A stretch of DNA of 64,000 bases from an uncultured Candidatus Rokubacteria bacterium (GTDB taxonomy: Bacteria > Methylomirabilota > Methylomirabilia > Rokubacteriales > DASRDR01): positions 256,001 to 320,000 of the forward strand of contig CAVPSB010000002.1 in NCBI GenBank assembly GCA_963708025.1, given 5' to 3'. Each line of letters opens with the position of its first letter. Position 1 is the first letter of the stretch. A program made the position numbers and the translations under genes. Below, piece by piece: positions 34,899 through 53,470 of this stretch. The notes under the pieces are model-generated. The model did not search any database. It was not told where the DNA came from and worked only from the letters and a program-made list of their open reading frames with translations.

Positions 34899-36113
34899 AT
34901 GAGACTGCATCGACTGGCCGCCTGGGCGTTCGGGCTGGCCCTGGTCGTTCACGCGACGCCGGCCGCCGTGGGCCAGGAGCGACCGCCGCAGCCGTTCGCC
35001 CCCACGTGGGCCAACCTGGCCGGCGCCACCGTCTTCGCCAGCAAGGGGTGCGGGCGGTGCCACGCCATCCGGGGATTCGGGGCGACCGCCGGGCCCGACC
35101 TCAGCCGGATCGAGCAGAAGAGCTTCTTCGACCTGGGCGCCGCGCTCTCGAACCACCTCCGCGGTGTCGCCATCCAGCGCCCCACCTTGACCGCCGAGCA
35201 GGTCACCAGCCTGATCGCGTTCCTGTTCACCCTCCAGTACGCGGACCAGCCGGGCGACCCCCAGGCCGGAGAGCAGCTCTTCACCGCAAAGGGCTGCGTC
35301 CAGTGTCACGAGGTCGGGGGCAAGGGCGGCCGGCTGGGTCCGAGCCTGGACTTCCTCAAGCGCGCCAACTCGCCGGTTCTGATCGCGGCCGCCCTGTGGA
35401 ACCACGGCCCCGAGATGGTGGAGACGCTGAAGGCCGTCGGGATCGAGCGCCCGACCTTCGCCGGCCGGGAGCTGGCCGACATCATCGCCTTCGTCCAGAG
35501 CTCGCCCCGGGAGCCCGGCGCCGAGACGGCCCGGGTCGTGGCTGGAACCCCAGAGCGTGGTGAGAAGCTCGTCGCCGAGAAGCGTTGCCTGGCCTGCCAC
35601 TCCATCGCGGGCAAGGGCGGCAAGGTCGGTCCCGAGCTGGGCCGGCGCCAGCACGTCAGCCTCACGCAGTTCGCGGCGCTGATGTGGAACCACGCCCCGG
35701 GAATGTGGGCCCAGATGGCGGCGCGCGGGGTCCAGGTGCCCCGCATGACCGGTCAGGAGATGGCGGACATCGTGGCCTACCTGTACGCGTCCCATTACTT
35801 CGACCAGCCGGGCGATGCCGGCCGCGGGCAGCAGCTGCTCCAGGTCAAGGGTTGCGCGAGCTGCCACGCGATCCGGGGCACCGGGCCGAAGGTCGGGGCG
35901 GATCTGGCCTCCTATTCCGCGCTCCGCTCCACGGCCGGCCTGGTCGCCGCGCTGTGGAATCACCCGCGGTACCTCGCGGCGCAGCAGCGGGAGGTTCCCT
36001 GGCCGCTGTTGACCGGGCAGGAGCTGTCCGACGTCGCCGCCTACGTGAGCGGACTGCCGAAGGGAGCGACGCCCGGGCCGAAGGGCGCGACTCCCCGGCC
36101 GAAGGGCCCGTAG
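34899..36113 (+). CDS. Periplasmic tetraheme cytochrome c made of four repeated class-I domains
   Basis: Signal peptide; CGRCH, CVQCH, CLACH, CASCH each followed by a (W/S)NH motif. Confidence 0.9.
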   Translation: MRLHRLAAWAFGLALVVHATPAAVGQERPPQPFAPTWANLAGATVFASKGCGRCHAIRGFGATAGPDLSRIEQKSFFDLGAALSNHLRGVAIQRPTLTAEQVTSLIAFLFTLQYADQPGDPQAGEQLFTAKGCVQCHEVGGKGGRLGPSLDFLKRANSPVLIAAALWNHGPEMVETLKAVGIERPTFAGRELADIIAFVQSSPREPGAETARVVAGTPERGEKLVAEKRCLACHSIAGKGGKVGPELGRRQHVSLTQFAALMWNHAPGMWAQMAARGVQVPRMTGQEMADIVAYLYASHYFDQPGDAGRGQQLLQVKGCASCHAIRGTGPKVGADLASYSALRSTAGLVAALWNHPRYLAAQQREVPWPLLTGQELSDVAAYVSGLPKGATPGPKGATPRPKGP

Positions 36114-36236
36114 TCCCGGCGCCGTGCCGGGTGGGGCGCCGCCACCCCACCCGGCTTGGCCGCGTGCCGCCTCGCGCGCGCGCTTCCCGGAGCATTTCCC
36201 CCGTGATTGCTGCCGGTTGCTCCGCTCGGCCACCGG

Positions 36237-36252
36237 TGGCACGACCGTTGCT
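36237..36252 (+). promoter_or_regulatory. Sigma54 -24/-12 promoter of the cytochrome operon
   Basis: TGGCACGACCGTTGCT (consensus); palindrome GTGGGGC-GCCGCC-ACCCCAC at 36131-36150. Confidence 0.88.
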
Positions 36253-36297
36253 GACCTGCACCTCCGACGCTGGATCGACGCCAACGGAGGGGACTTG

Positions 36298-36762
36298 ATG
36301 AGCCGTCAGCGGAACGTGTCGCGCAGTTCGAGGGCCTGGACGTTCTGGTCGCTCGCGGCCCTCACCGCGTTCCTCGCGCTGGGGGCCGGGCTCCTGTGGA
36401 TCCGGACGCCCGAGCCGGCGCCCACCGCCGCCGGGGGCCCGACCGTCTCCGCCGGCGGCCCCGGGAATGCGGTCGCGCGTCGCGAGACGCGACCGACGCT
36501 CGACCCGGCCCGCTTCGTCGGGAAGGCCGCCCGCGCCCACCAGGTGGCGCGGGAGATTCCCGACGTGCTGGACCGGCTCTACTGCTACTGCGAGTGCGAC
36601 CGGAACCTCGGTCACCGGAGCCTGCTCTCCTGCTACACCGACGGCCATGCCGCCACCTGAGGCATCTGCATGGACGAGGCGCTGGATGCGTCTCGCATGG
36701 TGAAGGCGGGGTACCCGGTGGAGCGGATCCGTTCCGAGATCGACCGGACGTACGGCCGATGA
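36298..36762 (+). CDS. CYCXC/PCYCGC-motif selenoprotein (Sec at TGA 36658-36660)
   Basis: LYCYCECD..GHRSLLSCY.DGHAAT-TGA-GICMDEA; frame stays open to TGA 36760-36762, which overlaps the next ATG; hairpin at 36675-36695. Confidence 0.85.
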
Positions 36763-38705
36763 TCGCCCGGGCGCTCGGACTGGCCCTGGCCGTCCTGGTC
36801 CTCCCCGTCGCGGCCGCCGCCCACGGCGACGAGCACCGCGAGGCGACGCCCGCCGGGAGCACGGGGGGCGTGGTGGTCCAGGGCTACCGCATCGAGCTCC
36901 AGAGCCACGGCGGCCTCGCCGCCGGGCAGGCCGCGCACCTGATCGCCCGGATCTCACGCGAGGCGCCGCCCGCTCCGGTGTCCGGCGGGCGCGTGCTCGT
37001 CGGCCTGGCCGCGGCCGGAGCGATTCCGGATCCGGCGCCGGCCCCTGAGGCGACGTGGGCCGGGAGCTACGCCGTCCCGGTGACGCCGAGCCGGCGGGGC
37101 GTCTATCAGGCGCGGGTCGTCGTGGAGGAGCTGGACGGCCGGCACCTGCACCCGCCGATCGTCGTTGACTTCCCGCTGACCGTGGAGCCGGCGCCGGGAC
37201 TCGGCGCCGGCGTCTGGGCGCTGCTGGCGTTCGTCGCCGGCCTCGGGCTCCTCGGCGTGTACGGGGTCGCGCTGCGGGCGAAGCTGGCTCGACCGGGAGC
37301 CGCCCTGAACCTCCTCGAGGTCGGCTGGATTCGCCGGCTCCTGACCGCTCGCGCCCTGCAGCCGGCGCTGCAGGTCCCGTTGCTCGCCCTGATGGGCGTC
37401 GTGGTCTTCGTCGGCCTCACCGACGTCCAGGACGGCGGACGGAACCTGGCGACCAAGCTGACGTGGACCATCTGGTGGGCCGGGATCATCTTCACGTTCT
37501 TCCTGGCCGGGCGGGTCTGGTGTCTCGCCTGCCCGTTCGGCGCCCTCAACGAGTGGACCTCGCGGCTGGTCCGGCCGCTCCGGCGACTGCCGGCCGCGTT
37601 CCGCAACATCTGGTGGGCGACGGCCGCGTTCGTCCTCCTGACCTGGGCCGACGAGCAGCTCGGGGTCGTGCGGTCACCCCAGGTCACGGCCGGGATCGTC
37701 CTCTTCTTCGCCGCGCTCGCCGTCGCAATCGGCCTCTTCTACGAGCGACGGAGCTTCTGCCGGCACCTCTGTCCGATCGGCGGCCTCATCGGCGTCTACT
37801 CGATGACCGCTCCGGTCGAGCTGCGTGCCAGGGACGGCGCGGTGTGCGCGGCGGACCACGACAAGGCCTGCTATCGAGGCGGCGAGACGGCGCGCGGGTG
37901 CCCGATGTTCGAGTTCCCCGGGAGCATGGACCGGAACAACTACTGCACGCTGTGCGCCGAGTGCGTCAGCGGGTGCGCCCGCCACAACCTGGTGCTCCGG
38001 CTGCGCGCCTTCGGCCAGGACCTCTGGGCGACGCGGCGGCGGCTGCTCGACGAGTCGTACCTCGCGGTGGTGCTCGTCGGCCTCACGCTCCTGGTGACCG
38101 CCCAGATGCTCACCGCGTGGCCGGGCTGGATCTCCGCCCTCGCCGGTGGCCTGCCCGGCTGGGTTCGGGCGTCCCTCAAGCCGGTGACGTATCTCGGGCT
38201 GGTCGAGTCCGCCGTCCTCCTCGGGGGGAGCCTGGTCGTCGTCCCGGCGCTGGTGCTGGGGGGCGCCGCCGTCGCCGATCGGCTCGCCGGCGAGCGGCGG
38301 CTCGGCTTGCGGCGGACGTTCGTCGCCTTCGGCTACATGTTCGTCCCGGTCGGCCTCGCCATGCACCTCGCCCACAACCTCGCGCACCTGCTCCTCGAGG
38401 GCGGCGGCATCGTGCCGGTCGTCCAGCGGGTGGTCGCCCGGTACACGCCGTTCTCGCTCGGCGTGCCCGACTGGGATGTCACGCCGCTGGCGCCCGAGCC
38501 GGTGGTCGCCCTGCTCCAGGTGGCCTTCCTGGTCGGCTTCTTCGTCCTCTCGCTCCAGGCGGGGCACCGCCTGTCGCTCCGCCTCTACCCCGACGCGCGG
38601 GTGGCGAGCCGCGCGTGGATCCCGATGGCCGGGTTGGCCCTGCTCTTCACCCTGGCCGGCATCCTCCTGCTGATGCAGCCCATGGGGATGCGTCACGCGA
38701 TGTAG
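36759..38705 (+). CDS. Membrane polyferredoxin (NapH/RdxA/NosR C-terminal-like) with N-terminal periplasmic domain
   Basis: GRVWCLACPFG, RSFCRHLCPIG, CPMF, CTLCAECVSGC; many TM helices. Confidence 0.85.
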   Translation: MIARALGLALAVLVLPVAAAAHGDEHREATPAGSTGGVVVQGYRIELQSHGGLAAGQAAHLIARISREAPPAPVSGGRVLVGLAAAGAIPDPAPAPEATWAGSYAVPVTPSRRGVYQARVVVEELDGRHLHPPIVVDFPLTVEPAPGLGAGVWALLAFVAGLGLLGVYGVALRAKLARPGAALNLLEVGWIRRLLTARALQPALQVPLLALMGVVVFVGLTDVQDGGRNLATKLTWTIWWAGIIFTFFLAGRVWCLACPFGALNEWTSRLVRPLRRLPAAFRNIWWATAAFVLLTWADEQLGVVRSPQVTAGIVLFFAALAVAIGLFYERRSFCRHLCPIGGLIGVYSMTAPVELRARDGAVCAADHDKACYRGGETARGCPMFEFPGSMDRNNYCTLCAECVSGCARHNLVLRLRAFGQDLWATRRRLLDESYLAVVLVGLTLLVTAQMLTAWPGWISALAGGLPGWVRASLKPVTYLGLVESAVLLGGSLVVVPALVLGGAAVADRLAGERRLGLRRTFVAFGYMFVPVGLAMHLAHNLAHLLLEGGGIVPVVQRVVARYTPFSLGVPDWDVTPLAPEPVVALLQVAFLVGFFVLSLQAGHRLSLRLYPDARVASRAWIPMAGLALLFTLAGILLLMQPMGMRHAM

Positions 38706-38732
38706 GCCGGACCGCAGAAAGGGAGACAGTCA

Positions 38733-39765
38733 GTGAAAAGCTGGAAATGGACGATCCCCACCCTGGTGCTCACCGCGGGCATCGGCCTCGGCGTCCTCGT
38801 CGGGCAGCCCGAGGCGCAGCAGAAGAACCTCCTCGTCTCGAAGAAGGTGGCCGCCGGGCCGACCCTCGACGGGACCATGAAGGACGCCTGGAAGGACGCC
38901 GCGCCCCTCACGGTCAAGGCCCTCGGCGGGAAGAACCTGCCCGGCGGCACGACCGAGATCACGATCCGCTCGGTGTACACCGAGGAGACCGTGTACTTCC
39001 TCGTCCAGTACAAGGACCCGACCGAGAGCGTCCAGCGCGAGCCGTGGCAGAAGCAGGCCGACGGCTCCTGGAAGCAGCTGAAGGACCCCGACGACAAGGG
39101 CGGGGACAACAACAAGTACTACGAGGACAAGCTGGCGATCCTCTGGAACATCAGCTCGCCGGCCTTCGAGCAGAAGGGCTGCCTGTCCGCCTGCCACACC
39201 GGCGAGGGCAAGCCGTACGGCAACAAGTACACCGCCGGCGCGGGCGAGCGGCTCGACATGTGGCACTGGAAGGGCGTGCGCACCGGCACCATCGGGCAGG
39301 TCGACGACCAGTACGTGGACAACACGAAGTACGACAAGGACAAGGCGCCCGAGGCCGGCCGCAAGAGCGACCCCAAGCACCGGCGGCGGCTACAAGAACA
39401 ACGTCAGCGACGACAAGAAGGGCCCGAAGTTCGCGCTGAAGCCGGCAACAAGCCGGCGCCGCCCTACTGGATCGTCGACGCCGAGAAGGAGCCGTTCGAC
39501 GACTCGCAAGTACAAGGCGGGCGACGAGGTGCCCGGGCATCGATCGTGGCGCCCTTCACCGGCGACCGCGGCGACATCGCGGCGAAGTCCACCTGGAAGG
39601 ACGGGGTCCGGACGGTCGAGATGGCGCGGAAGCTCGTCACCAACAGCGAGTTCGACGTGCAGTTCAACGACGAAGAAGGAGTACGCCTTCGGCGTCGCGG
39701 TCTTCGACAACGCCCAGGTGCGCCACGCCTACACCCCGGGCGTCCTGAAGATGGTCCTGGAATAG
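38733..39765 (+). CDS. Ethylbenzene-dehydrogenase-gamma-like (DOMON heme) periplasmic protein; several frameshifts after about 39375
   Basis: YFLVQYKDPT, YYEDKLAILW, CLSACH, DMWHWK, WKDG..TVEMARKL, FGVAVFDNAQVRH. Confidence 0.8.
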
Positions 39766-39820
39766 CACGGTCGGGCGCCGGCCCGGGGGAGTTCGCCTCC
39801 GGGCCGGCCGGAGGTCTGGC

Positions 39821-40189
39821 ATGACTCGATGGCTCGGTGTCGCGGCAGTCGTCGCCCTGCTGGTTGGCGGGCTCGTCTCCCAGGAGGTGGTTGCCCAGCC
39901 GAAGGGTGATCCGGCCAAGGGCGAGGCCCTGTACAAGGCCCGGTGCGTCACCTGTCACGGCGCGGCCGGCGCCGGCGACGGCCCGGCCGGGAAGGTGCTC
40001 AAGGACAAGCCCAAGGACTGGACCAAGGGCGAGGGCCTCAAGGATCTCTCGGACCAGCAGCTCTTCGACGCCATCAAGAAGGGCGGCAAGGCGATCGGCA
40101 AGTCGCCGGCGATGATCGCGTTCCCCAGTCTCTCCGACGCCGAGATCCAGAACGTGATCGCCTACGTCAAGACCCTGACCAAGTCGTGA
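39821..40189 (+). CDS. Monoheme cytochrome c
   Basis: Signal peptide, CVTCHG, GKSPAM. Confidence 0.92.
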   Translation: MTRWLGVAAVVALLVGGLVSQEVVAQPKGDPAKGEALYKARCVTCHGAAGAGDGPAGKVLKDKPKDWTKGEGLKDLSDQQLFDAIKKGGKAIGKSPAMIAFPSLSDAEIQNVIAYVKTLTKS

Positions 40190-40199
40190 CGCGACCGGC

Positions 40200-41384
40200 A
40201 TGACCCGGCATCCGGCGACCGCCCTGGTCGCGGCACTCCTGCTGGCGGGGGCGGCGGCCACCGCCGCCGCCCAGCCGCTGTTCGGCCCGGCCCAGGACCC
40301 GGTCGCCGGCTCCCGGGTCTTCGGCGACAAGGGCTGCGTCAAGTGCCACGCGGTGAACGGGGTGGGCGGGAAGGTCGGCCCCGACCTGGGGCGGCCGCCG
40401 CGTCCGCGCTCGTTCTTCGACCTCGCGGCCGGCATGTGGAATCACCTCCCCCGGATGACGGAGCGCATGCGGGCGCTCGGCGTCGCGCGCCCGCGGCTCG
40501 ACCCGCGCGAGGCCGGGGACCTCATCGCCTTCCTCTTCACCCTCGACTACTTCGACCCGCCCGGCAACCCGCAGGTGGGTCGCCGCCTCTTCCAGCAGAA
40601 GAAGTGCGTCGTCTGTCACCAGGTGGGCGACGTCGGCGGCGTGGTCGGGCCGAGCCTCGACCACCTCAAGCAATACGGCTCGCCGATCTTCGTGGCCGCC
40701 GCCATGTGGAACCACGGGCCGGCGATGACGGAGACGATGCGGGCCCGGGGGATCGAGCGGCCCGTCTTCAAGGACGCCGAGCTGATCGACCTGATCGCCT
40801 ACATCAAGTCGGCCTCGCCGCTCCCGGTGGCGGGCCCGCTGTACGTCCTGCCGGGCCGCGCCGCCGAGGGCCACCGGCTCTTCGTCGAGAAGCGCTGCAG
40901 CGACTGCCACGGGGTCGCCGGGAAGGGCGGCGGGGTCGGCCCCGACCTGGCCGAGCGCGGCGTGCACCGGAGCCTGACCCAGTTCGCGGCCGGGATGTGG
41001 GACAAGGCGCCGGCCATGCTGGCCGCGATGACGGCCCGGGGCATCCCGGTGCCGCAGCTCCGGGCCGAGGAGATGGCCGACATCGTCGCCTACCTCTACG
41101 CCGTGCAGTACTTCGCCGTGCCCGGGGACCGGCAGCGGGGGGCGAGGGTGGCGAAGGACAAGGGCTGCCTCGGCTGCCACACCGTGCTGGCCCGGGACGG
41201 GACGGCGCCGGCGGAGCTGAGCCGGGTCGCCGGCCTGGAGTCCCCGGCGGGGGTCATCGGGGCGCTGTGGAACCATTCGTTCCTCGCCGAGCCCGCGGCC
41301 CGCAAGCGTGGCTGGTCCGCGCTCCGTCCCGACGAGATGGCCGACCTGCTGGCCTTTCTGCGGTCGCTCCGGCCTTCGCCATGA
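40200..41384 (+). CDS. Tetraheme repeat-domain cytochrome c (paralog of 34899)
   Basis: CVKCH, CVVCH, CSDCH, CLGCH; MWNH motifs. Confidence 0.9.
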   Translation: MTRHPATALVAALLLAGAAATAAAQPLFGPAQDPVAGSRVFGDKGCVKCHAVNGVGGKVGPDLGRPPRPRSFFDLAAGMWNHLPRMTERMRALGVARPRLDPREAGDLIAFLFTLDYFDPPGNPQVGRRLFQQKKCVVCHQVGDVGGVVGPSLDHLKQYGSPIFVAAAMWNHGPAMTETMRARGIERPVFKDAELIDLIAYIKSASPLPVAGPLYVLPGRAAEGHRLFVEKRCSDCHGVAGKGGGVGPDLAERGVHRSLTQFAAGMWDKAPAMLAAMTARGIPVPQLRAEEMADIVAYLYAVQYFAVPGDRQRGARVAKDKGCLGCHTVLARDGTAPAELSRVAGLESPAGVIGALWNHSFLAEPAARKRGWSALRPDEMADLLAFLRSLRPSP

Positions 41385-43136: not shown

Positions 43137-43141
43137 GCCCC

Positions 43142-44917: not shown

Positions 44918-44919
44918 AC

Positions 44920-45291: not shown

Positions 45292-45319
45292 GCGCGCCCG
45301 TCGCCCCGGGTGAGCCGGC

Positions 45320-46222: not shown

Positions 46223-47556
46223 GGCCCGCCCCCGCGCTCCTCATCCTGATCCTGCTCGCCGCCGCCAGCTCGATCGGCGCCCAGGGCGTGCGCCCGCCCG
46301 AGCCGCCGGGGGCCCGGACCGGGGCCCCGGCGCCGGCGCCTCCGGCGGCGGTCCACCGCCCCGGCGAGCTCGACTGCCAGAACTGTCATCAGGGCAAGCA
46401 CCAGGGCGTGGTGCGGATGTACCTCGGGATGGGCGGGCGGGGAACGCCCATGATCCCGAGCCACATGGTCCAGGTGCGGGTCGAGTGCGCGGCCTGTCAC
46501 ATCGCGCCGAAGGAAGAGGAGCTCTGGGCCGGCATCGTCGGCCAGACGTTCCGGCCGAGCGAGCAGGCGTGCATCGGCTGCCACGGGGAGAAGTATCGCG
46601 GAATGCTGGGGCGGTGGGCGAGCACGCTGGTCCGGATGCAGGAGCTCCTGGCCCCCAAGCTGGCGGCGGCCCGGGGCGCGGTCGGCGCCGGCGACCCGAA
46701 GGACCCGAAGCGGGTGCGCGCGGGCCGGCTCCTGGACGACGCCGAGTTCAACAGCCGCTTCGTCGCGCTGGCCAGAGGCGTGCACAACGTCTTCTATGCC
46801 GCCGACCTGCTGAAGCTCGCGAACGGCTGGGTCGAGGAAGCGGCCGTGCTGGCGGGCAAGCCGGTCGTCCGGGGCGACGACACGCTCATCCGCGGGGGCT
46901 ACTGCGCCGTCCTCTGCCACGAGCAGGCCGGCGTGAAGCTGAAGGACACGGTCACCTTCGCCGACCGGAAGCTGCCGCACGCCCGGCACACGACGGAGTT
47001 CGGCGCGGTGTGCACGAGCTGTCACTCGGCCGAGGTCCACAAGGCGGTGACCGCCACCCCCGCGGCCTGTACCGCCTGTCACCACGGCCCGCAGAACGAC
47101 CGGTGCGAGGGCTGCCACCGCGCCCAGAGCGCCTTCTACCGGGGCCAGGCGCGCACCGACCACGGGCCCGTCGCGCCGAACCTGATGGCGGAGGCCGTGC
47201 CGTGCACCGGCTGTCACGATCTCGCGCGCAAGCACTCGCGAGCGGCGGTCGGGGAGAGGTGCCGGGCTTGCCACGAGCCGCCCTACCTGGCGCTGCTCGG
47301 CGAGTGGACGGTCGGGTTCGACCGGGACGCCGGGCGGGCGACCGCGGCGCTCCAGCGGGCGGAGGCGGCGCTCGCGAGCGCCCGGAAGGCCGGCCGGCCG
47401 ACCGGCGAGGGGGAGGCGCTCGTGAAGGAGGCCCGGCGGGCGCTGGCCCTCGTCCGCGGCGCCCGGGGCGCCCACAACCCGCTGGCCGCCGACGCGCTGC
47501 TCGAGGGCGCCCGGCAGAAGGCCGAGGCGGCGCTGGCGATGGTGGGACGGAAGTGA
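46219..47556 (+). CDS. Periplasmic multiheme cytochrome (8 CxxCH plus CX3CH)
   Basis: Signal peptide; CQNCH...CAVLCH...CRACH; GVHN and GAHN motifs in helical regions. Confidence 0.9.
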   Translation: MRPAPALLILILLAAASSIGAQGVRPPEPPGARTGAPAPAPPAAVHRPGELDCQNCHQGKHQGVVRMYLGMGGRGTPMIPSHMVQVRVECAACHIAPKEEELWAGIVGQTFRPSEQACIGCHGEKYRGMLGRWASTLVRMQELLAPKLAAARGAVGAGDPKDPKRVRAGRLLDDAEFNSRFVALARGVHNVFYAADLLKLANGWVEEAAVLAGKPVVRGDDTLIRGGYCAVLCHEQAGVKLKDTVTFADRKLPHARHTTEFGAVCTSCHSAEVHKAVTATPAACTACHHGPQNDRCEGCHRAQSAFYRGQARTDHGPVAPNLMAEAVPCTGCHDLARKHSRAAVGERCRACHEPPYLALLGEWTVGFDRDAGRATAALQRAEAALASARKAGRPTGEGEALVKEARRALALVRGARGAHNPLAADALLEGARQKAEAALAMVGRK

Positions 47557-48416
47557 GCCGCCGGCGCCGCGAGGAGCGCGCGCGGCAGGAGGCAGCCCTC
47601 CTCCAGGCGGGGCGCCCGCAGTGGCTGGTCGCCGCGCTGAGCGCGGTCGGGCTGGCGGTCGCCGGGTACCTGGCGGTGACGAAGCTCGCGGGCGGCGGCG
47701 CCCTGTTCTGCCGGGGCGTCGGCGGCTGCGAGGTGGTGCAGCAGAGCCGCTACGCGACCTTCCTGGGGCTGCCCACCGCGGCCTGGGGCGCCTTCGTCTA
47801 CGCGGCCGTCGGGGGCCTGGCCCTCGCCGGCCTCGCCCCCTGGCGCTGGCTCGCGGCCTTCGCGCTGGCGGCGGCGGCCGTCGCCTTCTCCGGCTACCTG
47901 ACCTACCTGGAGCTGTTCGTCATCGGGGCGGTCTGCTGGTACTGCGTGGTGTCGGCGGCGACGGCCACGGCGGTCCTGGGCGTGCTGCTCGGGCGCCGGC
48001 CGCCGAGCGGGCGGCACGGCCCGACCGCGCCGGCCCGGGTCGTGGGGGTGGGAGGGGCGTCGGCGCTGGGCGCCGTGGTGCTCGGCATCGCGGTCTTCGC
48101 CGCGACCGCCCCCGGCGGCGCCCCCGGCTACCAGGAAGCCCTCGCCCGCCACCTCGCCCAGAGCGGCGCGGTCATGTACGGCGCCTTCTGGTGACCCGCC
48201 TGCAAGGAGCAAAAGGCCCGGTTCGGGCCTGCCGCCGACCTCCTCCCCTACGTCGAGTGCGACCCGCGCGGATCCGGGGCGCGGCCCGACCTGTGCCAGC
48301 GCGTCGGCGTCCGCGGCTATCCGACCTGGACGGTCGGCGGGGAGCGCCTCGAAGGCGTCCTGTCCCTCGATCGCCTGGCCGAGCTCTCCCGCTACCAGCC
48401 CCCCGCGGGTCACTGA
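47553..48416 (+). CDS. VKOR-thioredoxin-like fusion selenoprotein (Sec at TGA 48192-48194)
   Basis: VKOR C-x5-C..V..SRYA, CWYC; then MYGAFW-TGA-PACKEQKARFG...YVEC...C...GVRGYPTW; hairpin AGGCCCG-GTT-CGGGCCT at 48214-48230. Confidence 0.9.
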
Positions 48417-48526: not shown

Positions 48527-48898
48527 ATGACACGAGGAATCCGTGCGGGAGTCGTCGTGGCCGCCGCCGTTGGCGTGGTGTCCCTGACCGTCGGGTTCGC
48601 GGCCGGCCAGGCCAAGGGGGACGCGAAGGCCGGCGAGCCCGTGTACAAGGCGAAGTGCGTCACCTGTCACGGCGCGGCCGGCAACGGCGACACCCCGGCC
48701 GGGAAGGCGCTGAACCCGAAGCCGCGGGACTGGACGAAGGGCGACGGGCTCGACCTCACCGACCAGCAGCTCTTCGACTCGATCAAGAAGGGGGGCGCGG
48801 CGGTCGGGCGGGGGAAGACGATGATCGCCTTCCCGACCCTGTCGGACACCGAGGTCTGGAATCTCGTCGCCTACGTCAAGTCGCTGAAGAAGTCCTGA
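48527..48898 (+). CDS. Monoheme cytochrome c (paralog of 39821)
   Basis: CVTCHG, DWTKG, MIAFP. Confidence 0.92.
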   Translation: MTRGIRAGVVVAAAVGVVSLTVGFAAGQAKGDAKAGEPVYKAKCVTCHGAAGNGDTPAGKALNPKPRDWTKGDGLDLTDQQLFDSIKKGGAAVGRGKTMIAFPTLSDTEVWNLVAYVKSLKKS

Positions 48899-49071: not shown

Positions 49072-49281
49072 CTACAGCAGTTCCTTGGCGCGGAGGTCCG
49101 CCAGCACCGCACCCGCCAGGAGCGCGAGCGCGACCAGGAAGAGCGCCTGGCCCAGGAACATGAAGATCGTGAAGGCGGTCGGCATGTTCCGCACGAGCAC
49201 GACGAGCGCCATCACGTCGAAGACGGCGGTCAAGAGGATCGCGAGCTGCAGCGCGCGGACGCGGCGTGGCTGTCCGGTCAT
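49072..49281 (-). CDS. Small two-TM membrane protein coupled to the NapC/NirT gene
   Basis: MTGQPRRVRALQLAILL...; ATGA overlap with 49278. Confidence 0.7.
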   Translation of the reverse strand: MTGQPRRVRALQLAILLTAVFDVMALVVLVRNMPTAFTIFMFLGQALFLVALALLAGAVLADLRAKELL

Positions 49282-49982
49282 CGGGAGGCCGCCTGCTTCG
49301 GCTCCGGATGGGCCGGGGCATGACAGCTCAGACAGGGGATCGTGTCGTTCACCATGTTGGGCACCAGCTCTGTTGGGTGTCCCGGCGAGTTGAGGAACTT
49401 CTGCGAGGCCCCGTGGCAGCCCAGGCAGCGCAGGCTCGGGTAGGGGTGCGCGATCTTGATCGGCAGCGTGTACGAGCCGATCAGGGACCGCCACACGTGA
49501 CCGAGGCCCGCCAGCTTCGCACCGAGCGTCCCCGTGAGCCCGTAGTCGGAATGACACGTGTAGCAGTGCTTGTCCTGGATGTACCGGTTCTTGAAGTGCG
49601 TGGCCGCCAGGGTGGCGCTCTGAGGGTTCCGGAGGTCCGCGACGAAGGGGGTCATGACGTGGCAGCCGCCACACGAGTTGACGGTGGACGAGCTCTCCAG
49701 GCCGGAGGCGAACGACAGGAAGGCCACCATCATGGGAACCAGGCCGACGGCCACCAGGAGCCACCCGCGCGCGGTGGGGGTCAGCCCGGACCGGCGCAGG
49801 GTGCGCCAGGCCACCGCGAGCAGCGCCAGGTTGAAGAGTGCGAAGACGATCCCCAGCCCCTGGAGCCACTGGTCGGTCGTCCCGATCCAGCCGCGGGGGA
49901 GGGGAACGGCGTCCTCGGCCGCGACCGCGGCGAGGGGCGCCAGCAGCACTAGGAAGGGGGCGGCCAGGGCGGTCCCGTTCAT
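49278..49982 (-). CDS. Tetraheme NapC/NirT (CymA/NrfH-like) quinol dehydrogenase
   Basis: TM helices then CGGCHVM, CYTCH, CLGCH, CLSCH. Confidence 0.85.
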   Translation of the reverse strand: MNGTALAAPFLVLLAPLAAVAAEDAVPLPRGWIGTTDQWLQGLGIVFALFNLALLAVAWRTLRRSGLTPTARGWLLVAVGLVPMMVAFLSFASGLESSSTVNSCGGCHVMTPFVADLRNPQSATLAATHFKNRYIQDKHCYTCHSDYGLTGTLGAKLAGLGHVWRSLIGSYTLPIKIAHPYPSLRCLGCHGASQKFLNSPGHPTELVPNMVNDTIPCLSCHAPAHPEPKQAASR

Positions 49983-50101
49983 ACGCGCTCCTCCGGAAGT
50001 TCGATCGGTCCCGGGGATTATGGCGGAGCGGCGGCCGGTCTGGCAACTCCCGGCTCCGCGGCTCCCGGGCCTGGGGGTCCCGGGATAGTGCATTTTCCTC
50101 A

Positions 50102-50130
50102 TTGACGCGCCGGGACCCCGGTCCTAGTAT
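50102..50130 (+). promoter_or_regulatory. Sigma70-type promoter for mtrAB
   Basis: TTGACG-N17-TAGTAT. Confidence 0.65.
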
Positions 50131-50184
50131 CGGCACCAATCCAGCGCAGTCGTTCCTCCGACGGAACCAGGGAGGACCCCGAGC

Positions 50185-51141
50185 ATGCGGCGACCAGGCA
50201 GGTCACTTCTCCGGGCCGGCCTTCTCTTCACAGCGGTCTTCCTCGTGGTGGTCGCGCTGGGGTCGTGCGCGCGTACCACGCGTCCCGACCGGGCGGCGCT
50301 CGTGCCGACCGGCCCTCCCGAGGCCTACGTCGGGGCGGAGCTGTGCAAGGCTTGCCACGAGCCGGCGTTCAATCGCTTCGGGCACACCAAGATGGGCCGG
50401 CTCTTCCTGCACCAGCCGCGGAACGACAAGGAGCGCATGGGCTGCGAGAATTGCCACGGCCCCGGCAAGGCCCATGTGGAGGCGGGCGGGACCCAGCCCA
50501 TGCCGGTCGCCTTCACCAAGAAGGGGAAGGAGACCGTCGAGGTCCGCAACGCGGTCTGCCTCCAGTGCCACGAGCGGCTGGCCCGGCTGTTCTGGGACGG
50601 CAGCGCTCACGAGTCGCGCGACCTCGCCTGCACGAACTGCCACCGGGTGATGGAGGACGTCAGCCCGAAGTTCCAGCTCGTCAAGAGCACCGAGCTGGAG
50701 ACGTGCGGGCAGTGCCACCTCGAGAAGCGGGCCGCCCAGATGCGCTCCTCGCACATGCCGCTGCGGGAAGGGAAGATGACCTGCAGCTCGTGCCACAACC
50801 CCCACGGGACGCTCAGCCAGACCCTCCTGAAGGAGAACTCGGTCAACGAGACCTGCTACGTCTGCCACGCCGAGAAGCGGGGCCCGTTCCTGTGGGAGCA
50901 CCCGCCGGTGACGGAGAACTGCGTCAACTGCCACGATCCCCACGGGTCGAACAACGAGAAGATGCTGAAGGTCTCCAAGCCGCGGCTCTGCCAGCAGTGC
51001 CACATCGAGACGCGGCACCCGACGCGCCCCTACGGGACGGACGCGGCGTCCTTCAAGTTCGTCATGGGACGATCGTGCTTGAACTGCCACGCCAACATCC
51101 ACGGCTCCAACCACCCGTCCGGCACGTACTACACCCGATAG
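50185..51141 (+). CDS. mtrA: Decaheme cytochrome c, MtrA/MtoA/PioA/DmsE family
   Basis: Ten CxxCH, CHGPG..H, CHAEKRGPFLWEHPPV.ENC, IHGSNHPSG. Confidence 0.95.
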   Translation: MRRPGRSLLRAGLLFTAVFLVVVALGSCARTTRPDRAALVPTGPPEAYVGAELCKACHEPAFNRFGHTKMGRLFLHQPRNDKERMGCENCHGPGKAHVEAGGTQPMPVAFTKKGKETVEVRNAVCLQCHERLARLFWDGSAHESRDLACTNCHRVMEDVSPKFQLVKSTELETCGQCHLEKRAAQMRSSHMPLREGKMTCSSCHNPHGTLSQTLLKENSVNETCYVCHAEKRGPFLWEHPPVTENCVNCHDPHGSNNEKMLKVSKPRLCQQCHIETRHPTRPYGTDAASFKFVMGRSCLNCHANIHGSNHPSGTYYTR

Positions 51142-51150
51142 GAGGCCGTC

Positions 51151-53380
51151 ATGCGCGCGTCGGGGACGGCACGGCTCATCGTGGCGGCGGCGGGGGCGCT
51201 GGCGCTCTCGGCCATGTCGGATGTCGCGTCGGCGCAGACGTCGATCTTCGGCCTCCAGGTCGACGGGTACGTGGAGCTGGGCGGCCGTGTCTACATCGAC
51301 GAGCCGTCCGACCAGGAGAAGGCGAAGCTGGAGGAGTACCGTGACCTCTCCCAGCAGCCCTTCGGGGCCTTCGGCGTCCGGCTCTTCCGCCCGGACGAGA
51401 GCCTGGCGATCGACCTGGGCGGCTCGAAGATCGGCCAGGACGACCAGGAGTTCTTCCTGGGTGTCGGAAAGCCCGGCCTCTGGCGGTTCGACTTCGACTG
51501 GAACCAGATCCCGCACGTCTACTCGACGAACGCCCGGCTCCTGGCGACCGAGCCGTCGTCCGGCGTCTTCACGCTGCCGACGCCGCGGCCCAACCTGAAC
51601 CTGTACAACGCGGCCCCCCGGCTGGACGAGATCAAGCAGGAGTGGGACGTCGGGACCTTCGGGTTCACGCTGACGCCCGACGCCGGACATCGACATCCTG
51701 GTCGAGTACACGCGGATCAAGAAGGACGGGAACATCCCGTTCGGGATGACGATGGGCAGCCCCGGGAGTAACTTCGTCGAGTTCCTCCAGCCGATCGACC
51801 AGACCATCCACGACGTCCGGGCCAAGGCCTCGTGGGTCGGCGAGGGCTGGCAGGTCCAGGCAGCCTACCAGCTCTCGCTCTTCGAGAACGCCCTCGATTC
51901 CGTGACCTTCGACAATCCCTGCTTCCGCCTGTCGGCGGCGGTGACGGCCGGCGGCTGCGCCGGCGACGGCGCCGGCCCCCAGCGGGGGCAGAGCGCGCAG
52001 CCTCCCGACAACGTCGCCCACACGTTCAGCATCGCCGGCGGCGTCAACCTGCCGATGCGGACCCGGGTGAACGGGAACGTCTCGTACAGCCTTCGCCTCC
52101 AGGACGAAGACTTCCTGCCCCACACGATCAACCCGGCGATCAGGTCACCGCTCCTCGCCCTGCCCAAGCAGAGCCTGGATGGCATGGTGGGCATCTTCCT
52201 CCTGAACCTGAACGCGACGAGCCGGCCGCTGCCGCCGCTCACGCTGACGGGACGCTTCCGCCTGTACGATTTCGACGACATGACCGACGAGATCCTCTTC
52301 CCTGGCCGGGTCGTGGACAACCGCTCCCTGAACACCGACCCGTTCACGGCCGTCCGCTACGACTACACGACGTACGAGGCGGGGCTGGACGGCCGCTGGC
52401 GCTTCAACCCGCAGGTGGCCGGCACCCTTGGTTTCGCCTGGCAACGCTGGGACCGCAACGCGAACCGCGAGGCGCAGCGGAGCGACGAGTACACCGCGAA
52501 GCTGGCGGTTGACACCACGCCGCTCGACTGGCTGCTCGGACGGCTGACCTACCGGCCGTCCTTCCGCCGGATCGGCGATTACAACACCTTCGCCCACCTG
52601 ATCCACGCCGCGACCGAGGAGGACGCCGCGACCGAGGCGCCGGTCAGCCAGTCCGTGCTGCTCCGGAAGTTCGACGAGGCGGACCGCGACCGCCAGCGGG
52701 TCGACCTCCTGCTCCAGTTCACGCCGACCGACGTCATCGCGATCACGCCGACCTTCAGCTACTGGTACGACGACTACTACAACTCGCCGCTCGGGCTCCA
52801 GAGCTCGGAGAACTACTCGGTCGGGATCGACGTGACCTGGAGCCCCTTCCCCTGGCTGGCCCTGACCGCCGGGTACGTCTACGAGCGGCTCGACCAGCAG
52901 CAGCGCTCGCAGAGCCGGGAGGTGGTCGGGGGGGTGACGTTCGAGCCCCCGGACTTCATCTGGAAATCCGACAACGTCGATACGTACAACACCGTGCACG
53001 CGAGCCTGAAGGCCACGCTGATCCCCGAGGTCCTGGACTGGTACCTGTACGTGAACTTCTCGATGGGCGACGGGGAGATCAAGACCTCGAACCCGATCCC
53101 GCCCCGGAGCGGCAACGCGTCCCAGAACTCCAACGCGACCGCCAAGCCGTTCCCCGACCTGGAGAACACCCTCGTCCAGGTGGGGACGACCTTCCGCTAC
53201 CGCTTCGCGAAGGCCTGGAGCTTCGCGCTCAGCTACCTCTTCGAGCAGTTCGACGAGACGAACTTCCGGACCGACGCGCTGAAGCCCTTCCAGACCCAGA
53301 CGTCCTCCATCTACCTCGGCAACGACCTCAAGGACTACACCGCGCACATCATCACGCTGGCGCTGGCGTACCGCTTCTAG
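51151..53380 (+). CDS. mtrB: MtrB/PioB family outer-membrane beta-barrel; frameshift near 51678
   Basis: KLEEYRDL, PIDQT, F.NPC...C, PPDN.AH, LRKFDEADRDR, C-terminal YRF; directly downstream of the decaheme gene. Confidence 0.92.
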
Positions 53381-53470
53381 TAGGGTCGGGCGTCGCCCGG
53401 GACGGGCCGCCCGTCGGATCGGGGCCGGGCTCCCTTGACCGCGGCGAGGGCCGCCGGGTACTGTGTCGGC

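What the first reader, a model, noticed from the sequence alone, without database searches (positions are those of the whole stretch)
34899..53380. Membrane-to-outside electron conduit with ~57 hemes, a bc complex and two selenoproteins
Seen in sequence: 12 c-type cytochrome genes with 54 CxxCH plus 3 longer-spaced motifs (manual count), a Rieske/cyt b pair with intact PEWY, a polyferredoxin, a DOMON/EbdC-like heme protein, two NapC/NirT-type proteins and an MtrA/MtrB pair. Most of 36298-48416 is translationally coupled (ATGA/GTGA overlaps) behind one sigma54 promoter. Established: MtrAB/MtoAB/PioAB span the outer membrane, and NapC/CymA and bc complexes connect to the quinone pool. Inference: one locus encodes a full quinone-periplasm-exterior chain, and its main operon begins and ends with UxxC selenoproteins that may control thiol redox state during assembly. 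I do not know this combination from characterised organisms.
Basis: partly seen in the sequence, partly recalled or inferred. Interest (0 to 1): 0.88.

Follow-up and report, generated by a model that had tools for sequence, protein, structure and literature searches.

The report
Multihaem respiratory island with outer-membrane conduit
This stretch holds a real gene island, conserved in related bacteria, that joins a specialised quinol-oxidising membrane complex, many haem proteins, two selenium-containing helper proteins and an outer-membrane electron channel; it probably lets the cell trade electrons with minerals outside it, though nobody has tested that.

Summary
I recount 54 CxxCH plus 3 longer-spaced motifs, against 2 CxxCH in six frames in the rest of the window. 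Family searches confirm a Rieske/cyt b pair, a polyferredoxin, an EB_dh haem protein, two NapC/NirT-type proteins, a DmsE/MtrA decahaem and an MtrB/PioB porin. Both UGA codons are real selenocysteine sites. The TGA is kept in 9 of 9 and 4 of 4 orthologues found, and selA, selB and tRNA-Sec are in the genome.

The sigma-54 site before the main operon recurs in 4 of 4 relatives. Gene order is conserved across Methylomirabilota/Rokubacteria MAGs, and related arrays occur in groundwater Elusimicrobia.

Three caveats apply:
- EB_dh, a dihaem gene and mtrB carry frame breaks in this assembly, probably assembly errors.
- mtrAB is not in the sigma-54 operon here.
- Only about a third of relatives carry mtrAB.

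The combination is not unprecedented. Geobacter's extHIJKLMNOPQS cluster joins a porin, a selenocysteine cytochrome, multihaems and a Rieske/cyt b pair (PMC5877670). The direction of electron flow is unresolved. The Sec form of the VKOR-thioredoxin fusion may be an undescribed selenoprotein family. I rate this a new variant of a known kind, of moderate interest.

The parts
34769..34783 (+). Weaker sigma-54-like site (TGGCAT-N5-CTGC), 116 bases before G1
   Evidence: sequence read
34899..36113 (+). G1: periplasmic tetrahaem cytochrome made of four class-I cytochrome c domains; 48% identical to its paralogue G6
36237..36251 (+). Sigma-54 -24/-12 element TGGCACGACCGTTGC, 47 bases before the G2 start
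   Evidence: equivalent sites before G2 in 4 of 4 relatives; rpoN in genome
36298..36762 (+). G2: membrane-anchored CYCXC-family selenoprotein; UGA at 36658-36660 within T-U-G-I-C
   Evidence: NF041379 131.4 bits, cut-off 90; TGA in 4 of 4 orthologues; conserved hairpin after the UGA
36759..38705 (+). G3: 648-aa membrane polyferredoxin of NapH/MauN type, with an N-terminal periplasmic domain
   Evidence: Fer4_5 46.8 bits; NapH models below cut-off; Atlas clusters named '4Fe-4S binding protein'
38733..39765 (+). G4: anchored EB_dh/DOMON-like haem protein with a conserved CX3CH; five frame breaks at about 39370-39700 in this assembly
   Evidence: EB_dh 129.7 bits; frame alternation against intact relatives; indel differences in related contigs
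39821..40189 (+). G5: monohaem class-I cytochrome c; 68% identical to G14
40200..41384 (+). G6: tetrahaem cytochrome of four class-I domains
41381..42688 (+). G7: nonahaem cytochrome with a C-terminal membrane helix; inferred cytochrome c subunit of the Rieske/cyt b complex
   Evidence: 9 CxxCH; always next to Rieske/cyt b in relatives, in two different orders; Atlas clusters auto-named 'quinol-cytochrome-c reductase cytochrome c subunit', score 0.98 (a lead only)
42678..43136 (+). G8: Rieske 2Fe-2S protein (CTHLNC ... CACHNGH)
43142..44245 (+). G9: cytochrome b (b6 fused to subunit IV) with PEWY
   Evidence: PF00033 179 bits, PF00032 42 bits; ExtP model 214.5 bits, below its cut-off of 290
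44242..44917 (+). Dihaem class-I cytochrome c; three frame breaks in this assembly; a single intact gene of about 205 aa in relatives
   Evidence: a related contig with 2 gaps over 44341-44795
44920..45291 (+). c7-type trihaem cytochrome with an N-terminal anchor
   Evidence: TIGR04257 62.2 bits; separate gene in relatives; start placed
45320..46222 (+). G11: membrane-anchored NrfH-like quinol dehydrogenase module fused to an ActA/c3-like module (8 CxxCH + CX4CH)
   Evidence: PF03264 48.3 bits; PDB NrfH 2J7A_C E 1.2e-9 and ACIII ActA chains
46219..47556 (+). G12: periplasmic cytochrome with 8 CxxCH + CX3CH; always follows G11
   Evidence: no sequence relative in the PDB
47553..48416 (+). G13: VKOR fused to a periplasmic thioredoxin-like domain, with Sec (UGA 48192-48194) in W-U-P-A-C
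   Evidence: aligns over residues 13-282 with Synechococcus VKOR-Trx 3KP9, E 8.8e-46, U on the first Cys of CPHC; TGA in 9 of 9 orthologues; hairpin invariant in 10 of 10
48527..48898 (+). G14: monohaem class-I cytochrome c; not found in most relatives' loci
49278..49982 (-). G15: NapC/NirT-family tetrahaem quinol dehydrogenase, divergent from mtrA; not found in relatives' loci
   Evidence: PF03264 38.5 bits; 4 CxxCH
50017..50130 (.). Divergent sigma-70-like promoter matches between G15 and mtrA
   Evidence: 2 found against 0.5 expected; consensus matches only
50185..51141 (+). G16: MtrA/DmsE-family decahaem cytochrome
   Evidence: TIGR03508 262.9 bits, cut-off 192; 249.5 bits to chain A of 6R2Q; 10 CxxCH
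51151..53380 (+). G17: MtrB/PioB outer-membrane barrel; one frame break at about 51678 in this assembly
   Evidence: TIGR03509 276.9 bits, cut-off 240; single continuous alignment to intact relatives across the break; a related contig one base shorter over 51610-51916
53435..54058 (+). Hemerythrin-domain protein directly after mtrB; membership of the system uncertain
   Evidence: PF01814 59.8 bits; not found in relatives' loci

Best explanation
The locus is a respiratory island of a Methylomirabilota/Rokubacteria-type bacterium. It connects the membrane quinone pool to the cell surface.

Main operon. One sigma-54-driven operon (G2-G13) encodes:
- A second, specialised Rieske/cytochrome b complex. 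Its cytochrome c subunit is a C-terminally anchored nonahaem protein (G7).
- An NrfH-like anchored octahaem (G11) with its periplasmic partner (G12).
- Several class-I and c7-type periplasmic carriers.
- A polyferredoxin/EB_dh/CYCXC trio of unclear role.
- A selenocysteine-containing VKOR-thioredoxin fusion. I take this to be the periplasmic disulphide-forming catalyst that serves this cysteine-rich set of exported proteins.

Conduit. A separately promoted MtrA/MtrB porin-cytochrome pair carries electrons across the outer membrane. A NapC-type tetrahaem and a monohaem carrier sit beside it.

Mechanism I commit to. Under oxygen limitation, quinol is oxidised by the Rieske/cyt b complex and/or by G11. 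Electrons then hop through the periplasmic multihaems to MtrA inside MtrB, and on to extracellular acceptors of fairly high potential such as Mn(IV) or Fe(III) minerals, or humic matter.

Shown: gene content, selenocysteine coding, conserved synteny, the conserved promoter motif. Inferred: subunit assignments, the electron path, its direction, and the role of the selenoproteins.

I give about 0.65 to 'a quinone-to-surface chain in either direction' and 0.4 to the outward version.
For: - Components and motif counts are confirmed.
- G2-G13 is tightly packed and co-directional, with six overlaps.
- The sigma-54 element before G2 recurs in 4 of 4 relatives, and rpoN is present.
- Synteny of G2-G3-G4-G6-G7-Rieske-cyt b-dihaem-c7-G11-G12-(G13) holds in Methylomirabilota loci. 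Cyt b lies upstream of G11 in 11 of 13 loci with at least 6 kb of upstream DNA.
- mtrA-mtrB lies directly after G12/G13 on the same strand in 7 loci: L015, L016, L021, L022, L030, L031, L065.
- Groundwater Elusimicrobia carry MtrA, MtrB (208-351 bits in 3 of 3 tested), a NapC-type 14-haem fusion and Rieske/cyt b in one array.
- The genome has a separate Rieske/cyt b in a caa3 oxidase operon, so this one is an extra branch.
- G11 matches NrfH and ACIII ActA chains.
- G13 is a full-length VKOR-Trx.
- For the outward direction: three quinol-dehydrogenase-type modules are present. Similar sigma-54 sites stand before Usp, CBS and HSP20 genes, next to a pyruvate:ferredoxin oxidoreductase gene. The analogous Geobacter ext cluster sits in a metal reducer (PMC5877670).
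- Weak hint of expression: contigs of one metatranscriptome run, mostly 90-99% alike, lie on 50529-53339. DNA carry-over in that library is not excluded.
Against: - No MtrC/OmcA-type surface decahaem is in the genome; the best TIGR03507 hit is 19 bits. That is the pattern of the electron-uptake systems MtoAB and PioAB.
- Published network analysis places Rokubacteria homologues next to PioA/PioB (PMC10654088).
- Many carriers here are class-I, usually high-potential cytochromes. A Q-cycle complex feeding low-potential multihaems is energetically awkward.
- mtrAB is absent from the downstream flank in 9 of 13 related loci and found in only 67 of 201 genomes of the phylum. The conserved core therefore has a function that does not need it.
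- In this genome mtrAB is not in the sigma-54 operon.
- mtrB, the dihaem gene and the EB_dh gene are frame-broken as assembled.
- There is no covariation in the SECIS-like hairpins, and no experimental data for any member.
Confidence: 0.4

Rival explanations
1. Same hardware, opposite direction: an electron-uptake pathway. Fe(II), reduced minerals or reduced humics are oxidised at MtrAB, which would be MtoAB/PioAB-like. Electrons then pass to the class-I cytochromes. From there they run downhill to the caa3 oxidase or nitrogen-oxide reductases. They also run uphill through the extra Rieske/cyt b complex, working in reverse at the expense of proton-motive force, or through NapC/NrfH-type proteins, to reduce quinone.
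For: - There is no MtrC/OmcA in the genome.
- mtrAB is flanked by a monohaem c and a NapC-type tetrahaem, as in the Sideroxydans mto cluster (the architecture is recalled; the gene content here comes).
- Rokubacteria homologues are reported as first neighbours of PioA/PioB at about 43% identity (PMC10654088).
- Class-I cytochromes are abundant: G1, G5, G6, the dihaem gene, G14.
- Use of a dedicated bc complex for uphill flow is established in Acidithiobacillus ferrooxidans (recalled).
Against: - G14 does not match MtoD among solved structures at E <= 0.01.
- The multihaems G7, G11 and G12 are of c3/c7 type, usually low-potential.
- The sigma-54 neighbourhood of Usp, CBS, HSP20 and PFOR genes looks like a low-oxygen response rather than lithotrophy.
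- I did not test for autotrophy genes.
Confidence: 0.3
2. The conserved core (Rieske/cyt b + G7 + G11-G12 + carriers) is a purely periplasmic respiratory module. It might feed nitrogen-oxide, sulphur or other soluble-substrate reductases, or work as in the anammox-type Rieske/cyt b complexes. On this view mtrAB merely lies next to it in some genomes, without a dedicated functional link.
For: - 9 of 13 related loci with at least 3.5 kb downstream lack mtrA there.
- 134 of 201 genomes of the phylum gave no MtrB match, whereas G11 relatives are widespread.
- G7-like 'quinol-cytochrome-c reductase cytochrome c subunit' clusters are large and spread over many phyla.
- In this window mtrAB has its own promoter-like sites.
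Against: - mtrAB recurs in immediate, same-strand contact with the core in 7 Methylomirabilota loci.
- It is also linked in a different gene order in Elusimicrobia: mtrA is present in 11 of 31 non-Methylomirabilota loci, one of them a weak 26% hit, and MtrB was confirmed in 3 of 3 tested.
- Repeated linkage in two phyla and two arrangements is hard to explain by chance.
Confidence: 0.15
3. The conduit is decaying in this organism. On this view the frame breaks in mtrB, the dihaem gene and the EB_dh gene are real mutations, and the locus no longer works as a chain.
For: - There are nine frame breaks in three genes as assembled.
- MtrB is an intact 730-870-aa frame in nearly all other genomes with a match above the cut-off.
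Against: - The out-of-frame pieces keep 40-70% identity to relatives and keep the third-position GC signal.
- Five alternating shifts within about 330 bases are not how pseudogenes decay.
- Essential genes elsewhere are also split: COX1 on contig 13 and ChrA in the window.
- Related metagenome contigs differ by indels at exactly these places.
- Contamination is estimated at 8.18%, which suggests a mixed-strain consensus.
Confidence: 0.05

Closest known systems
Geobacter sulfurreducens extHIJKLMNOPQS cluster (PMC5877670, passages read)
   Same: One conserved cluster joins an outer-membrane porin, a selenocysteine-containing protein, 10- and 12-haem cytochromes, a Rieske protein, a cytochrome b and a further c-type cytochrome. 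G9 scores 214.5 bits on the ExtP model and G1 60 bits on the ExtS model.
   Different: - All Ext model scores are below their cut-offs.
- The porin here is MtrB/PioB, not ExtI.
- The selenoproteins here are CYCXC and VKOR-Trx, not the cytochrome ExtKL.
- No Ext-family model other than ExtP, ExtQ and ExtS was reported for any protein.
- There is no rhodanese.
MtoAB-MtoD-CymA of Sideroxydans lithotrophicus ES-1 and PioAB(C) of Rhodopseudomonas palustris TIE-1 (architecture recalled; abstracts seen in the listing)
   Same: A decahaem cytochrome plus an MtrB/PioB barrel without a surface MtrC. A monohaem class-I cytochrome and a NapC/NirT tetrahaem lie beside them.
   Different: - G14 does not match MtoD among solved structures.
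- The pair here is linked to a Rieske/cyt b-multihaem operon and to selenoproteins.
- Direction and substrate are untested.
Shewanella MtrCAB (PDB 6R2Q)
   Same: G16 matches chain A of 6R2Q with 249.5 bits, E 4.6e-73. From memory, not from the table, I take that chain to be MtrA; the table gives it another molecule name. G17 passes the MtrB/PioB model.
   Different: - No MtrC/OmcA homologue is in the genome.
- The inner-membrane partners differ: a bc complex and an NrfH-like octahaem, besides a NapC-type protein.
Rieske/cyt b complexes with multihaem c subunits in Planctomycetes (anammox R/b-2, R/b-3) and Deltaproteobacteria (recalled; cyt b clades in PMC5600118, passages read)
   Same: A b6-type cytochrome b and a Rieske protein pair with a multihaem cytochrome in place of c1. 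A Planctomycetia MAG (L057) has Rieske-cyt b-G7-G11-G12 at 58, 56, 42, 51 and 34% identity.
   Different: - No NAD(P)-binding or HAO-like subunit is present here.
- Cyt b is fused to subunit IV and lacks the CxGG cysteine of haem c_n (read).
- It is linked to MtrAB.
Synechococcus VKOR-thioredoxin fusion (PDB 3KP9/4NV5)
   Same: End-to-end alignment at 159.7 bits. The loop cysteine pair, the membrane CxxC and the thioredoxin-like CxxC all align.
   Different: - The first Cys of the thioredoxin-like CxxC is selenocysteine here, and also in 40 full-length matches among 201 genomes of the phylum.
- The gene is embedded in a cytochrome operon.
NrfH quinol dehydrogenase and ActA of alternative complex III
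   Same: The N-terminal third of G11 matches NrfH (2J7A_C, E 1.2e-9). Its C-terminal part matches ActA chains 6LOD_A, 6F0K_A and 8K9E_A.
   Different: - The two modules are fused into one 8-9-haem protein.
- There is no NrfA and there are no ActB-F partners in the locus.
- The NrfH model scores 55.9 bits, below its cut-off of 134.

Membership tests
MtrAB / MtoAB / PioAB porin-cytochrome conduit | Periplasmic decahaem cytochrome of the DmsE/MtrA family | tested here: met
   TIGR03508 262.9 bits, cut-off 192.2; 10 CxxCH; 249.5 bits to 6R2Q chain A
MtrAB / MtoAB / PioAB porin-cytochrome conduit | MtrB/PioB-family outer-membrane barrel encoded next to the decahaem gene | tested here: met
   TIGR03509 276.9 bits, cut-off 240. 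It starts 9 bases after mtrA. However, one frame break at about 51678 interrupts it in this assembly.
MtrAB / MtoAB / PioAB porin-cytochrome conduit | Surface decahaem MtrC/OmcA (this defines MtrCAB, not MtoAB/PioAB) | tested here: not met
   Best TIGR03507 match in the whole genome is 19.1 bits, cut-off 209.
MtrAB / MtoAB / PioAB porin-cytochrome conduit | [quoted passage not shown] | not testable with these tools
   Needs biochemistry or genetics.
Rieske/cytochrome b (bc-type) complex | Rieske protein with CxH and CxxH cluster boxes, and cytochrome b with a Qo-site PEWY | tested here: met
   CTHLNC, CACHNGH and KPEWYF read; PF00355 46.7 bits, PF00033 179.3 bits, PF00032 42.2 bits
Rieske/cytochrome b (bc-type) complex | A dedicated c-type cytochrome subunit | tested here: inconclusive
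   G7 has nine haems and a C-terminal helix. It is adjacent to Rieske/cyt b in relatives, in two gene orders, and its nearest Atlas clusters are auto-named accordingly. No physical evidence exists, and I ran no complex prediction.
CYCXC-family (seleno)protein (NF041379, OS_HP4) | Score above the curated cut-off, with UxxC at the family's Sec position | tested here: met
   131.4 bits, cut-off 90. TGA is kept in 4 of 4 orthologues. The family is listed as a known UxxC selenoprotein in PMC13188914 (passages read).
Bacterial selenoprotein (general criteria), applied to G13 | In-frame UGA with conserved coding sequence downstream, Cys-containing homologues, a hairpin 16-37 nt after the UGA, and Sec machinery in the genome | tested here: met
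   - TGA in 9 of 9 orthologues.
- Cys at this position in 3KP9.
- About 20 matches in the phylum without a stop.
- A hairpin with a GUU loop, invariant in 10 of 10, also at synonymous sites, but without covariation.
- selB 372 bits, selA 598 bits, tRNA-Sec 76 bits.
The spacing rule is recalled from the bSECISearch description.
VKOR-thioredoxin fusion (DsbB/DsbA-like disulphide-forming enzyme) | VKOR domain with a loop Cys pair and a membrane CxxC, a fifth helix, and a periplasmic Trx-like CxxC domain | tested here: met
   PF07884 91.1 bits; full-length alignment to 3KP9 with all three Cys pairs aligned, and U in place of one Cys
Geobacter Ext (ExtHIJKLMNOPQS) system | Equivalog-level matches to the Ext proteins | tested here: not met
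   ExtP 214.5 bits against 290, ExtQ 19.6 against 150, ExtS 60 against 100. No Ext-family model other than these three was reported at E <= 0.01. This is an analogue, not a member.
NapC/NirT/NrfH quinol dehydrogenases | N-terminal helix plus a tetrahaem NapC/NirT domain | tested here: met
   PF03264: G11 48.3 bits and G15 38.5 bits, cut-off 24.1. The equivalog models NrfH, NapC and TorC are all below cut-off, so membership holds at superfamily level only.

The most novel reading that the evidence does not exclude
A supermodule recurs across phyla: Methylomirabilota including Methylomirabilis-labelled MAGs, groundwater Elusimicrobia, and some Planctomycetia. In it a Q-cycle Rieske/cyt b complex with a nonahaem subunit, together with an NrfH-ActA fusion cytochrome, acts as the inner-membrane gate of an MtrAB-type conduit, in place of CymA, CbcL or ImcH. 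That would be an undescribed, energy-conserving or reversible route for extracellular electron exchange. It would be serviced by a periplasmic selenocysteine VKOR-thioredoxin enzyme that is itself a new selenoprotein family.
Probability: 0.3. Interest if true: 0.8.

Novelty: new variant of a known kind. Interest (0 to 1): 0.55.

Why it matters
Methylomirabilota/Rokubacteria are abundant and uncultured in soils, aquifers and wetlands, and the phylum includes nitrite-dependent methane oxidisers. The cluster is conserved. If it really wires a proton-translocating bc-type complex to an outer-membrane conduit, these organisms could respire or oxidise minerals and humic matter. That bears on iron, manganese, carbon and methane budgets. 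It would also add a fourth kind of inner-membrane entry point for extracellular electron transfer, beside CymA, ImcH and CbcL.

The Sec-containing VKOR-thioredoxin fusion occurs in 40 of 201 sampled genomes as full-length matches with one TGA. I did not find it among the selenoprotein families named in the main text of a 2026 review. It would be a rare case of a selenoenzyme in periplasmic disulphide formation.

Against this, every building block and the general idea are known. Geobacter's ext cluster combines a porin, a bc complex and a selenoprotein, and PioAB-like genes have been noted in Rokubacteria. Nothing here is experimentally tested.

Tried and rejected
- Rfam gathering-threshold scan of the whole window: 0 matches. 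ARAGORN: 0 tRNAs.
- Single-sequence folds after both UGAs gave hairpins, but their z-scores (-0.77 and +0.56) are no better than shuffles in this GC-rich DNA.
- Alignment folds showed no compensatory changes, 0 of 9 and 0 of 13 pairs. The SECIS argument therefore rests on invariance at synonymous sites, not on covariation.
- I tested the idea that G14 is MtoD-like. MtoD is not among the 20 PDB matches at E <= 0.01; the best is 6H5L_B. I rejected this as a sequence relationship.
- PDB sequence searches for G7 and G12: no match. For an intact EB_dh orthologue there were only marginal hits, with NXR subunit C 7B04_C at E 0.066.
- Terminator scan: 6 found against 4.9 expected, none informative on the + strand inside the operon.
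- Laying four public runs gave only short contigs from mixed relatives. They cannot show a transcript spanning genes, and uncovered parts mean nothing. The 20 runs holding part of the stretch hold at most 0.30 of its words, and I did not use them to name a habitat.
- Earlier findings of this scan: none by place or by words.
- Literature searches found no paper describing this cluster architecture, nor a Sec-containing VKOR. Subscription journals, supplements and bioRxiv supplements were not seen. The reference behind the '63 selenoprotein' Methylomirabilota MAG was not read and may list the VKOR form.
- I did not run structure prediction, fold search, complex prediction, the two large protein-database searches, or a tree of MtrA/MtrB against named PioAB/MtoAB/MtrAB sequences. 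No reference sequences were available from the tools I used.

Full report
**Gene calling.** The window has about 72% G+C, so raw ORF lists are mostly noise. I set the frames from third-position G+C and from translations. This gives a co-directional array: G1 (34899-36113), then G2 to G13 (36298-48416), then G14. After that come one opposite-strand gene G15, then mtrA (G16), mtrB (G17) and a hemerythrin gene. The coordinates are in the parts list.

**The observation.** The rest of the window, read in all six frames, holds only 2 CxxCH, so the enrichment is not chance. Pfam and NCBIfam confirm each named part. They give Rieske (46.7 bits), cytochrome b (179 bits; KPEWYF read) and a Fer4_5 membrane polyferredoxin (46.8 bits; NapH models below cut-off). 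They also give EB_dh (129.7 bits) and NapC/NirT regions in G11 (48.3 bits) and G15 (38.5 bits). The DmsE-family decahaem scores 262.9 bits against a cut-off of 192, and MtrB/PioB scores 276.9 against 240. G16 also matches chain A of the Shewanella 6R2Q structure at 249.5 bits. From G2 to G13 there are five 4-base overlaps, one 11-base overlap, and gaps of at most 55 bases.

**Promoters.** A perfect sigma-54 element, TGGCAC-N5-TTGC, lies 47 bases before G2. Equivalent elements precede the G2 orthologue in 4 of the 4 relatives whose upstream DNA I hold, and the genome has rpoN at 460 bits. Similar sites stand before G1 and before neighbouring Usp, CBS, HSP20 and unknown genes (with the annotation). 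The 15-base pattern is itself over-represented: 35 matches against 11.1 expected. mtrAB is different. It follows the opposite-strand NapC-type gene, and the spacer between them holds two divergent sigma-70-like matches, against 0.5 expected. In this genome the locus therefore comprises several transcription units, not one.

**Selenoproteins.** G2 passes the curated CYCXC (seleno)protein model at 131.4 bits against a cut-off of 90. That family is already listed as a UxxC selenoprotein (PMC13188914, passages read). G13 aligns from residue 13 to 282 with the solved Synechococcus VKOR-thioredoxin fusion (3KP9, E 8.8e-46). Its UGA falls on the first cysteine of that protein's CPHC.

In relatives' loci, all 9 VKOR-Trx orthologues in which the motif could be found carry TGA there, and so do all 4 CYCXC orthologues. 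A tenth VKOR hit, L009, runs off its contig before the motif. In a sample of 201 genomes of the phylum, I count 40 full-length matches with one TGA inside, about 20 with no stop and 3 with one TAG. I verified the position of the TGA only for the nine loci.

Hairpins follow both UGAs at a spacing that fits the bacterial SECIS model as I recall it. They are nearly invariant across relatives even at synonymous positions, but they show no compensatory changes. selB, selA and tRNA-Sec lie together on contig 32. I found no mention of a Sec-containing VKOR in the main text of the 2026 review or in the listing. No '(seleno)protein' VKOR model appeared. It may therefore be an undescribed selenoprotein family, but I did not read the review's tables beyond the quoted passages, nor its reference on a 63-selenoprotein Methylomirabilota MAG.

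**Frame breaks.** I compared the window with intact orthologues. The EB_dh gene switches between two frames five times within about 39370-39700. The gene after cytochrome b is a dihaem class-I cytochrome of about 205 aa in relatives, followed by a separate c7-type trihaem gene; here it is shifted three times. mtrB has one shift, at about 51678. Each displaced piece remains well conserved.

Related metagenome contigs differ from the window by 1-2-base indels at 39378, 39439/39442, 39507, 39537-39542 and 39671. One contig is a base shorter across 51610-51916. Other genes are split too: ChrA in the window, and COX1 in the genome's caa3 operon. The assembly is estimated at 8.18% contamination. I conclude that these breaks are most likely consensus errors, but this needs reads to settle.

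**Relatives.** A scan of one genome per species with G11 gave 63 loci. Those at 55-73% identity are labelled Methylomirabilota, Rokubacteria or Methylomirabilis, with two odd labels. Those at 48-62% are mostly groundwater Elusimicrobia, plus Riflebacteria, a Planctomycetia MAG and an Acidobacteriota MAG.

tblastn of all window proteins against these loci shows a conserved order in the first group: (G1)-G2-G3-G4-G6-G7-Rieske-cyt b-dihaem-c7-G11-G12-(G13). Cytochrome b lies upstream of G11 in 11 of 13 loci with at least 6 kb of upstream DNA. mtrA-mtrB follows G12 or G13 directly on the same strand in L015, L016, L021, L022, L030, L031 and L065. But among 13 loci with at least 3.5 kb downstream, only 4 have it. 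G5, G14, G15 and the hemerythrin gene are not found in these loci, apart from weak G5/G14 hits in L028. They are therefore additions of this genome.

In the second group, mtrA is in 11 of 31 loci, one of them a weak 26% hit. In L048 one tight array encodes the following, in order:
- MtrA, then MtrB (351 bits)
- a 452-aa protein with one CxxCH and no Pfam match, and a 116-aa monohaem protein that I did not scan
- a 7-haem protein with a cytochrome b561 domain
- a NapC-type 14-haem fusion and a 5-haem protein
- Rieske, cytochrome b6, and subunit IV fused to a dihaem

Across 201 genomes of the phylum, the MtrB/PioB model hits 67, of which 52 are above the cut-off. Nearly all of these are intact frames of 730-870 aa.

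**The rest of the genome.** There is a single MtrB and no MtrC/OmcA-type protein. A second Rieske/cytochrome b sits in an operon with COX2, COX1, COX3 and a dihaem cytochrome. The complex in the window is therefore an additional branch, not the aerobic complex III.

**What the parts most likely do.**
- G7 has nine haems and a C-terminal helix, and it keeps company with Rieske/cyt b in two different gene orders. Its nearest language-model clusters are auto-named cytochrome c subunits of quinol-cytochrome-c reductase (a lead only). I take it as the c1 substitute.
- G11 joins an NrfH-like quinol dehydrogenase module to an ActA-like module. G12 always follows it.
- G13 is a DsbB/DsbA-type fused disulphide catalyst, with Sec as the attacking residue. 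By charge distribution and hydrophobic segments, read by eye, its Trx domain and the Cys/Sec-rich domain of G2 should both face the periplasm.
- The G2-G3-G4 trio is conserved. Its role is unknown. Metal or cofactor handling, or electron delivery from the cytoplasm, is a guess based on its resemblance to NapH/NosR-type proteins.

**Direction.** Sequence cannot fix it.
- For outward flow: there are three quinol-oxidising module types. The sigma-54 neighbourhood has a low-oxygen look, with Usp, CBS, HSP20 and pyruvate:ferredoxin oxidoreductase genes. There is the Geobacter analogy.
- For uptake: MtrC is missing. A NapC-type protein and a monohaem carrier lie beside mtrAB. Class-I cytochromes are abundant. 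Rokubacteria homologues are reported near PioA/PioB (PMC10654088).
- Overall I give 0.65 to a quinone-to-surface chain in either direction. That splits into 0.4 for outward flow and 0.3 for uptake, which I list as separate hypotheses.

**Comparison with what is known.** The closest described system is Geobacter's extHIJKLMNOPQS (PMC5877670). It has the same logic, including a selenoprotein, but the Ext equivalog models are not met here. The review also lists ExtKL and a GSU2204 MtrB/PioB-family protein as selenoproteins, so selenium in such conduits is not new. Multihaem Rieske/cyt b complexes are known from comparative work (PMC5600118; the anammox complexes are recalled). Surveys of quinol oxidases for extracellular electron transfer report one ImcH homologue in Rokubacteria and two CbcL-type homologues in Elusimicrobia (PMC6295460). 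mtrA has been ticked off in some Methylomirabilota MAGs (PMC10386581). The groundwater Elusimicrobia preprint does not mention Mtr or extracellular transfer in its main text.

Two earlier notes of this scan describe the same kind of cluster in two other genomes. They agree with my synteny results, but they are not independent evidence.

**Verdict.** This is a real, conserved cluster that is only partly described in the literature. It is a new variant of the known porin-cytochrome-plus-quinol-oxidase theme. Two points deserve follow-up: the recurrent coupling of a bc-type complex to MtrAB across phyla, and the Sec-VKOR-thioredoxin enzyme. The tallies include one genome flagged as unpublished (G152); no specific claim rests on it.

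Noticed in passing
window 14865-34616: Sigma-54-type -24/-12 sites stand before a CBS gene (17328, minus strand), before a gene at 22592 that is followed by Usp genes (22538, plus strand), at an HSP20 gene (29057, minus strand) and before an unknown 130-aa gene (34602, minus strand). An NtrC-type sigma-54 activator (14865-16247), a pyruvate:ferredoxin oxidoreductase (17697-21506), a citrate synthase and PAS sensor kinases lie nearby. This looks like one sigma-54 stress or low-oxygen regulon surrounding the cytochrome island.
   Followed up: partly
window 55562-57462: A chromate-resistance cluster (ChrB-like and ChrA). ChrA is split into two fragments (55973-56641 and 56708-57010), and one ChrB_C copy is truncated. 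These are further frame breaks of the assembly.
   Followed up: no
L070 (G000 contig 13, 354001-372000): The genome's second Rieske/cyt b complex sits in a caa3-type oxidase operon. COX1 there is split into two frames. A truncated NrfA (cytochrome c552) lies next to an NrfH-like hit.
   Followed up: partly
genomes G192, G050, G097: Three VKOR-thioredoxin homologues of one genus show one TAG inside the match, instead of TGA or no stop. I did not check whether this is a gene boundary, an error or something else.
   Followed up: no
window 48192-48251 and the nine orthologous loci: The stretch GAGCAAAAGGCCCGGTTCGGG after the UGA of the VKOR gene is identical in 9 of the 10 sequences; L008 differs by one base. 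It includes a CAA codon, unusual in genomes with over 90% G+C at third positions. This indicates selection on the RNA itself.
   Followed up: partly
window 50185-50290: The MtrA homologue's signal peptide ends in ...VALGSC, a possible lipoprotein box. If real, this MtrA would be lipid-anchored, unlike Shewanella MtrA (a recalled comparison). I read this by eye.
   Followed up: no
L048 8436-9908: The Elusimicrobia array includes a 7-haem protein fused to a cytochrome b561-type membrane domain. Its architecture is CbcL/MtoC/MtrH-like. It sits between mtrB and the NapC-type 14-haem fusion.
   Followed up: partly
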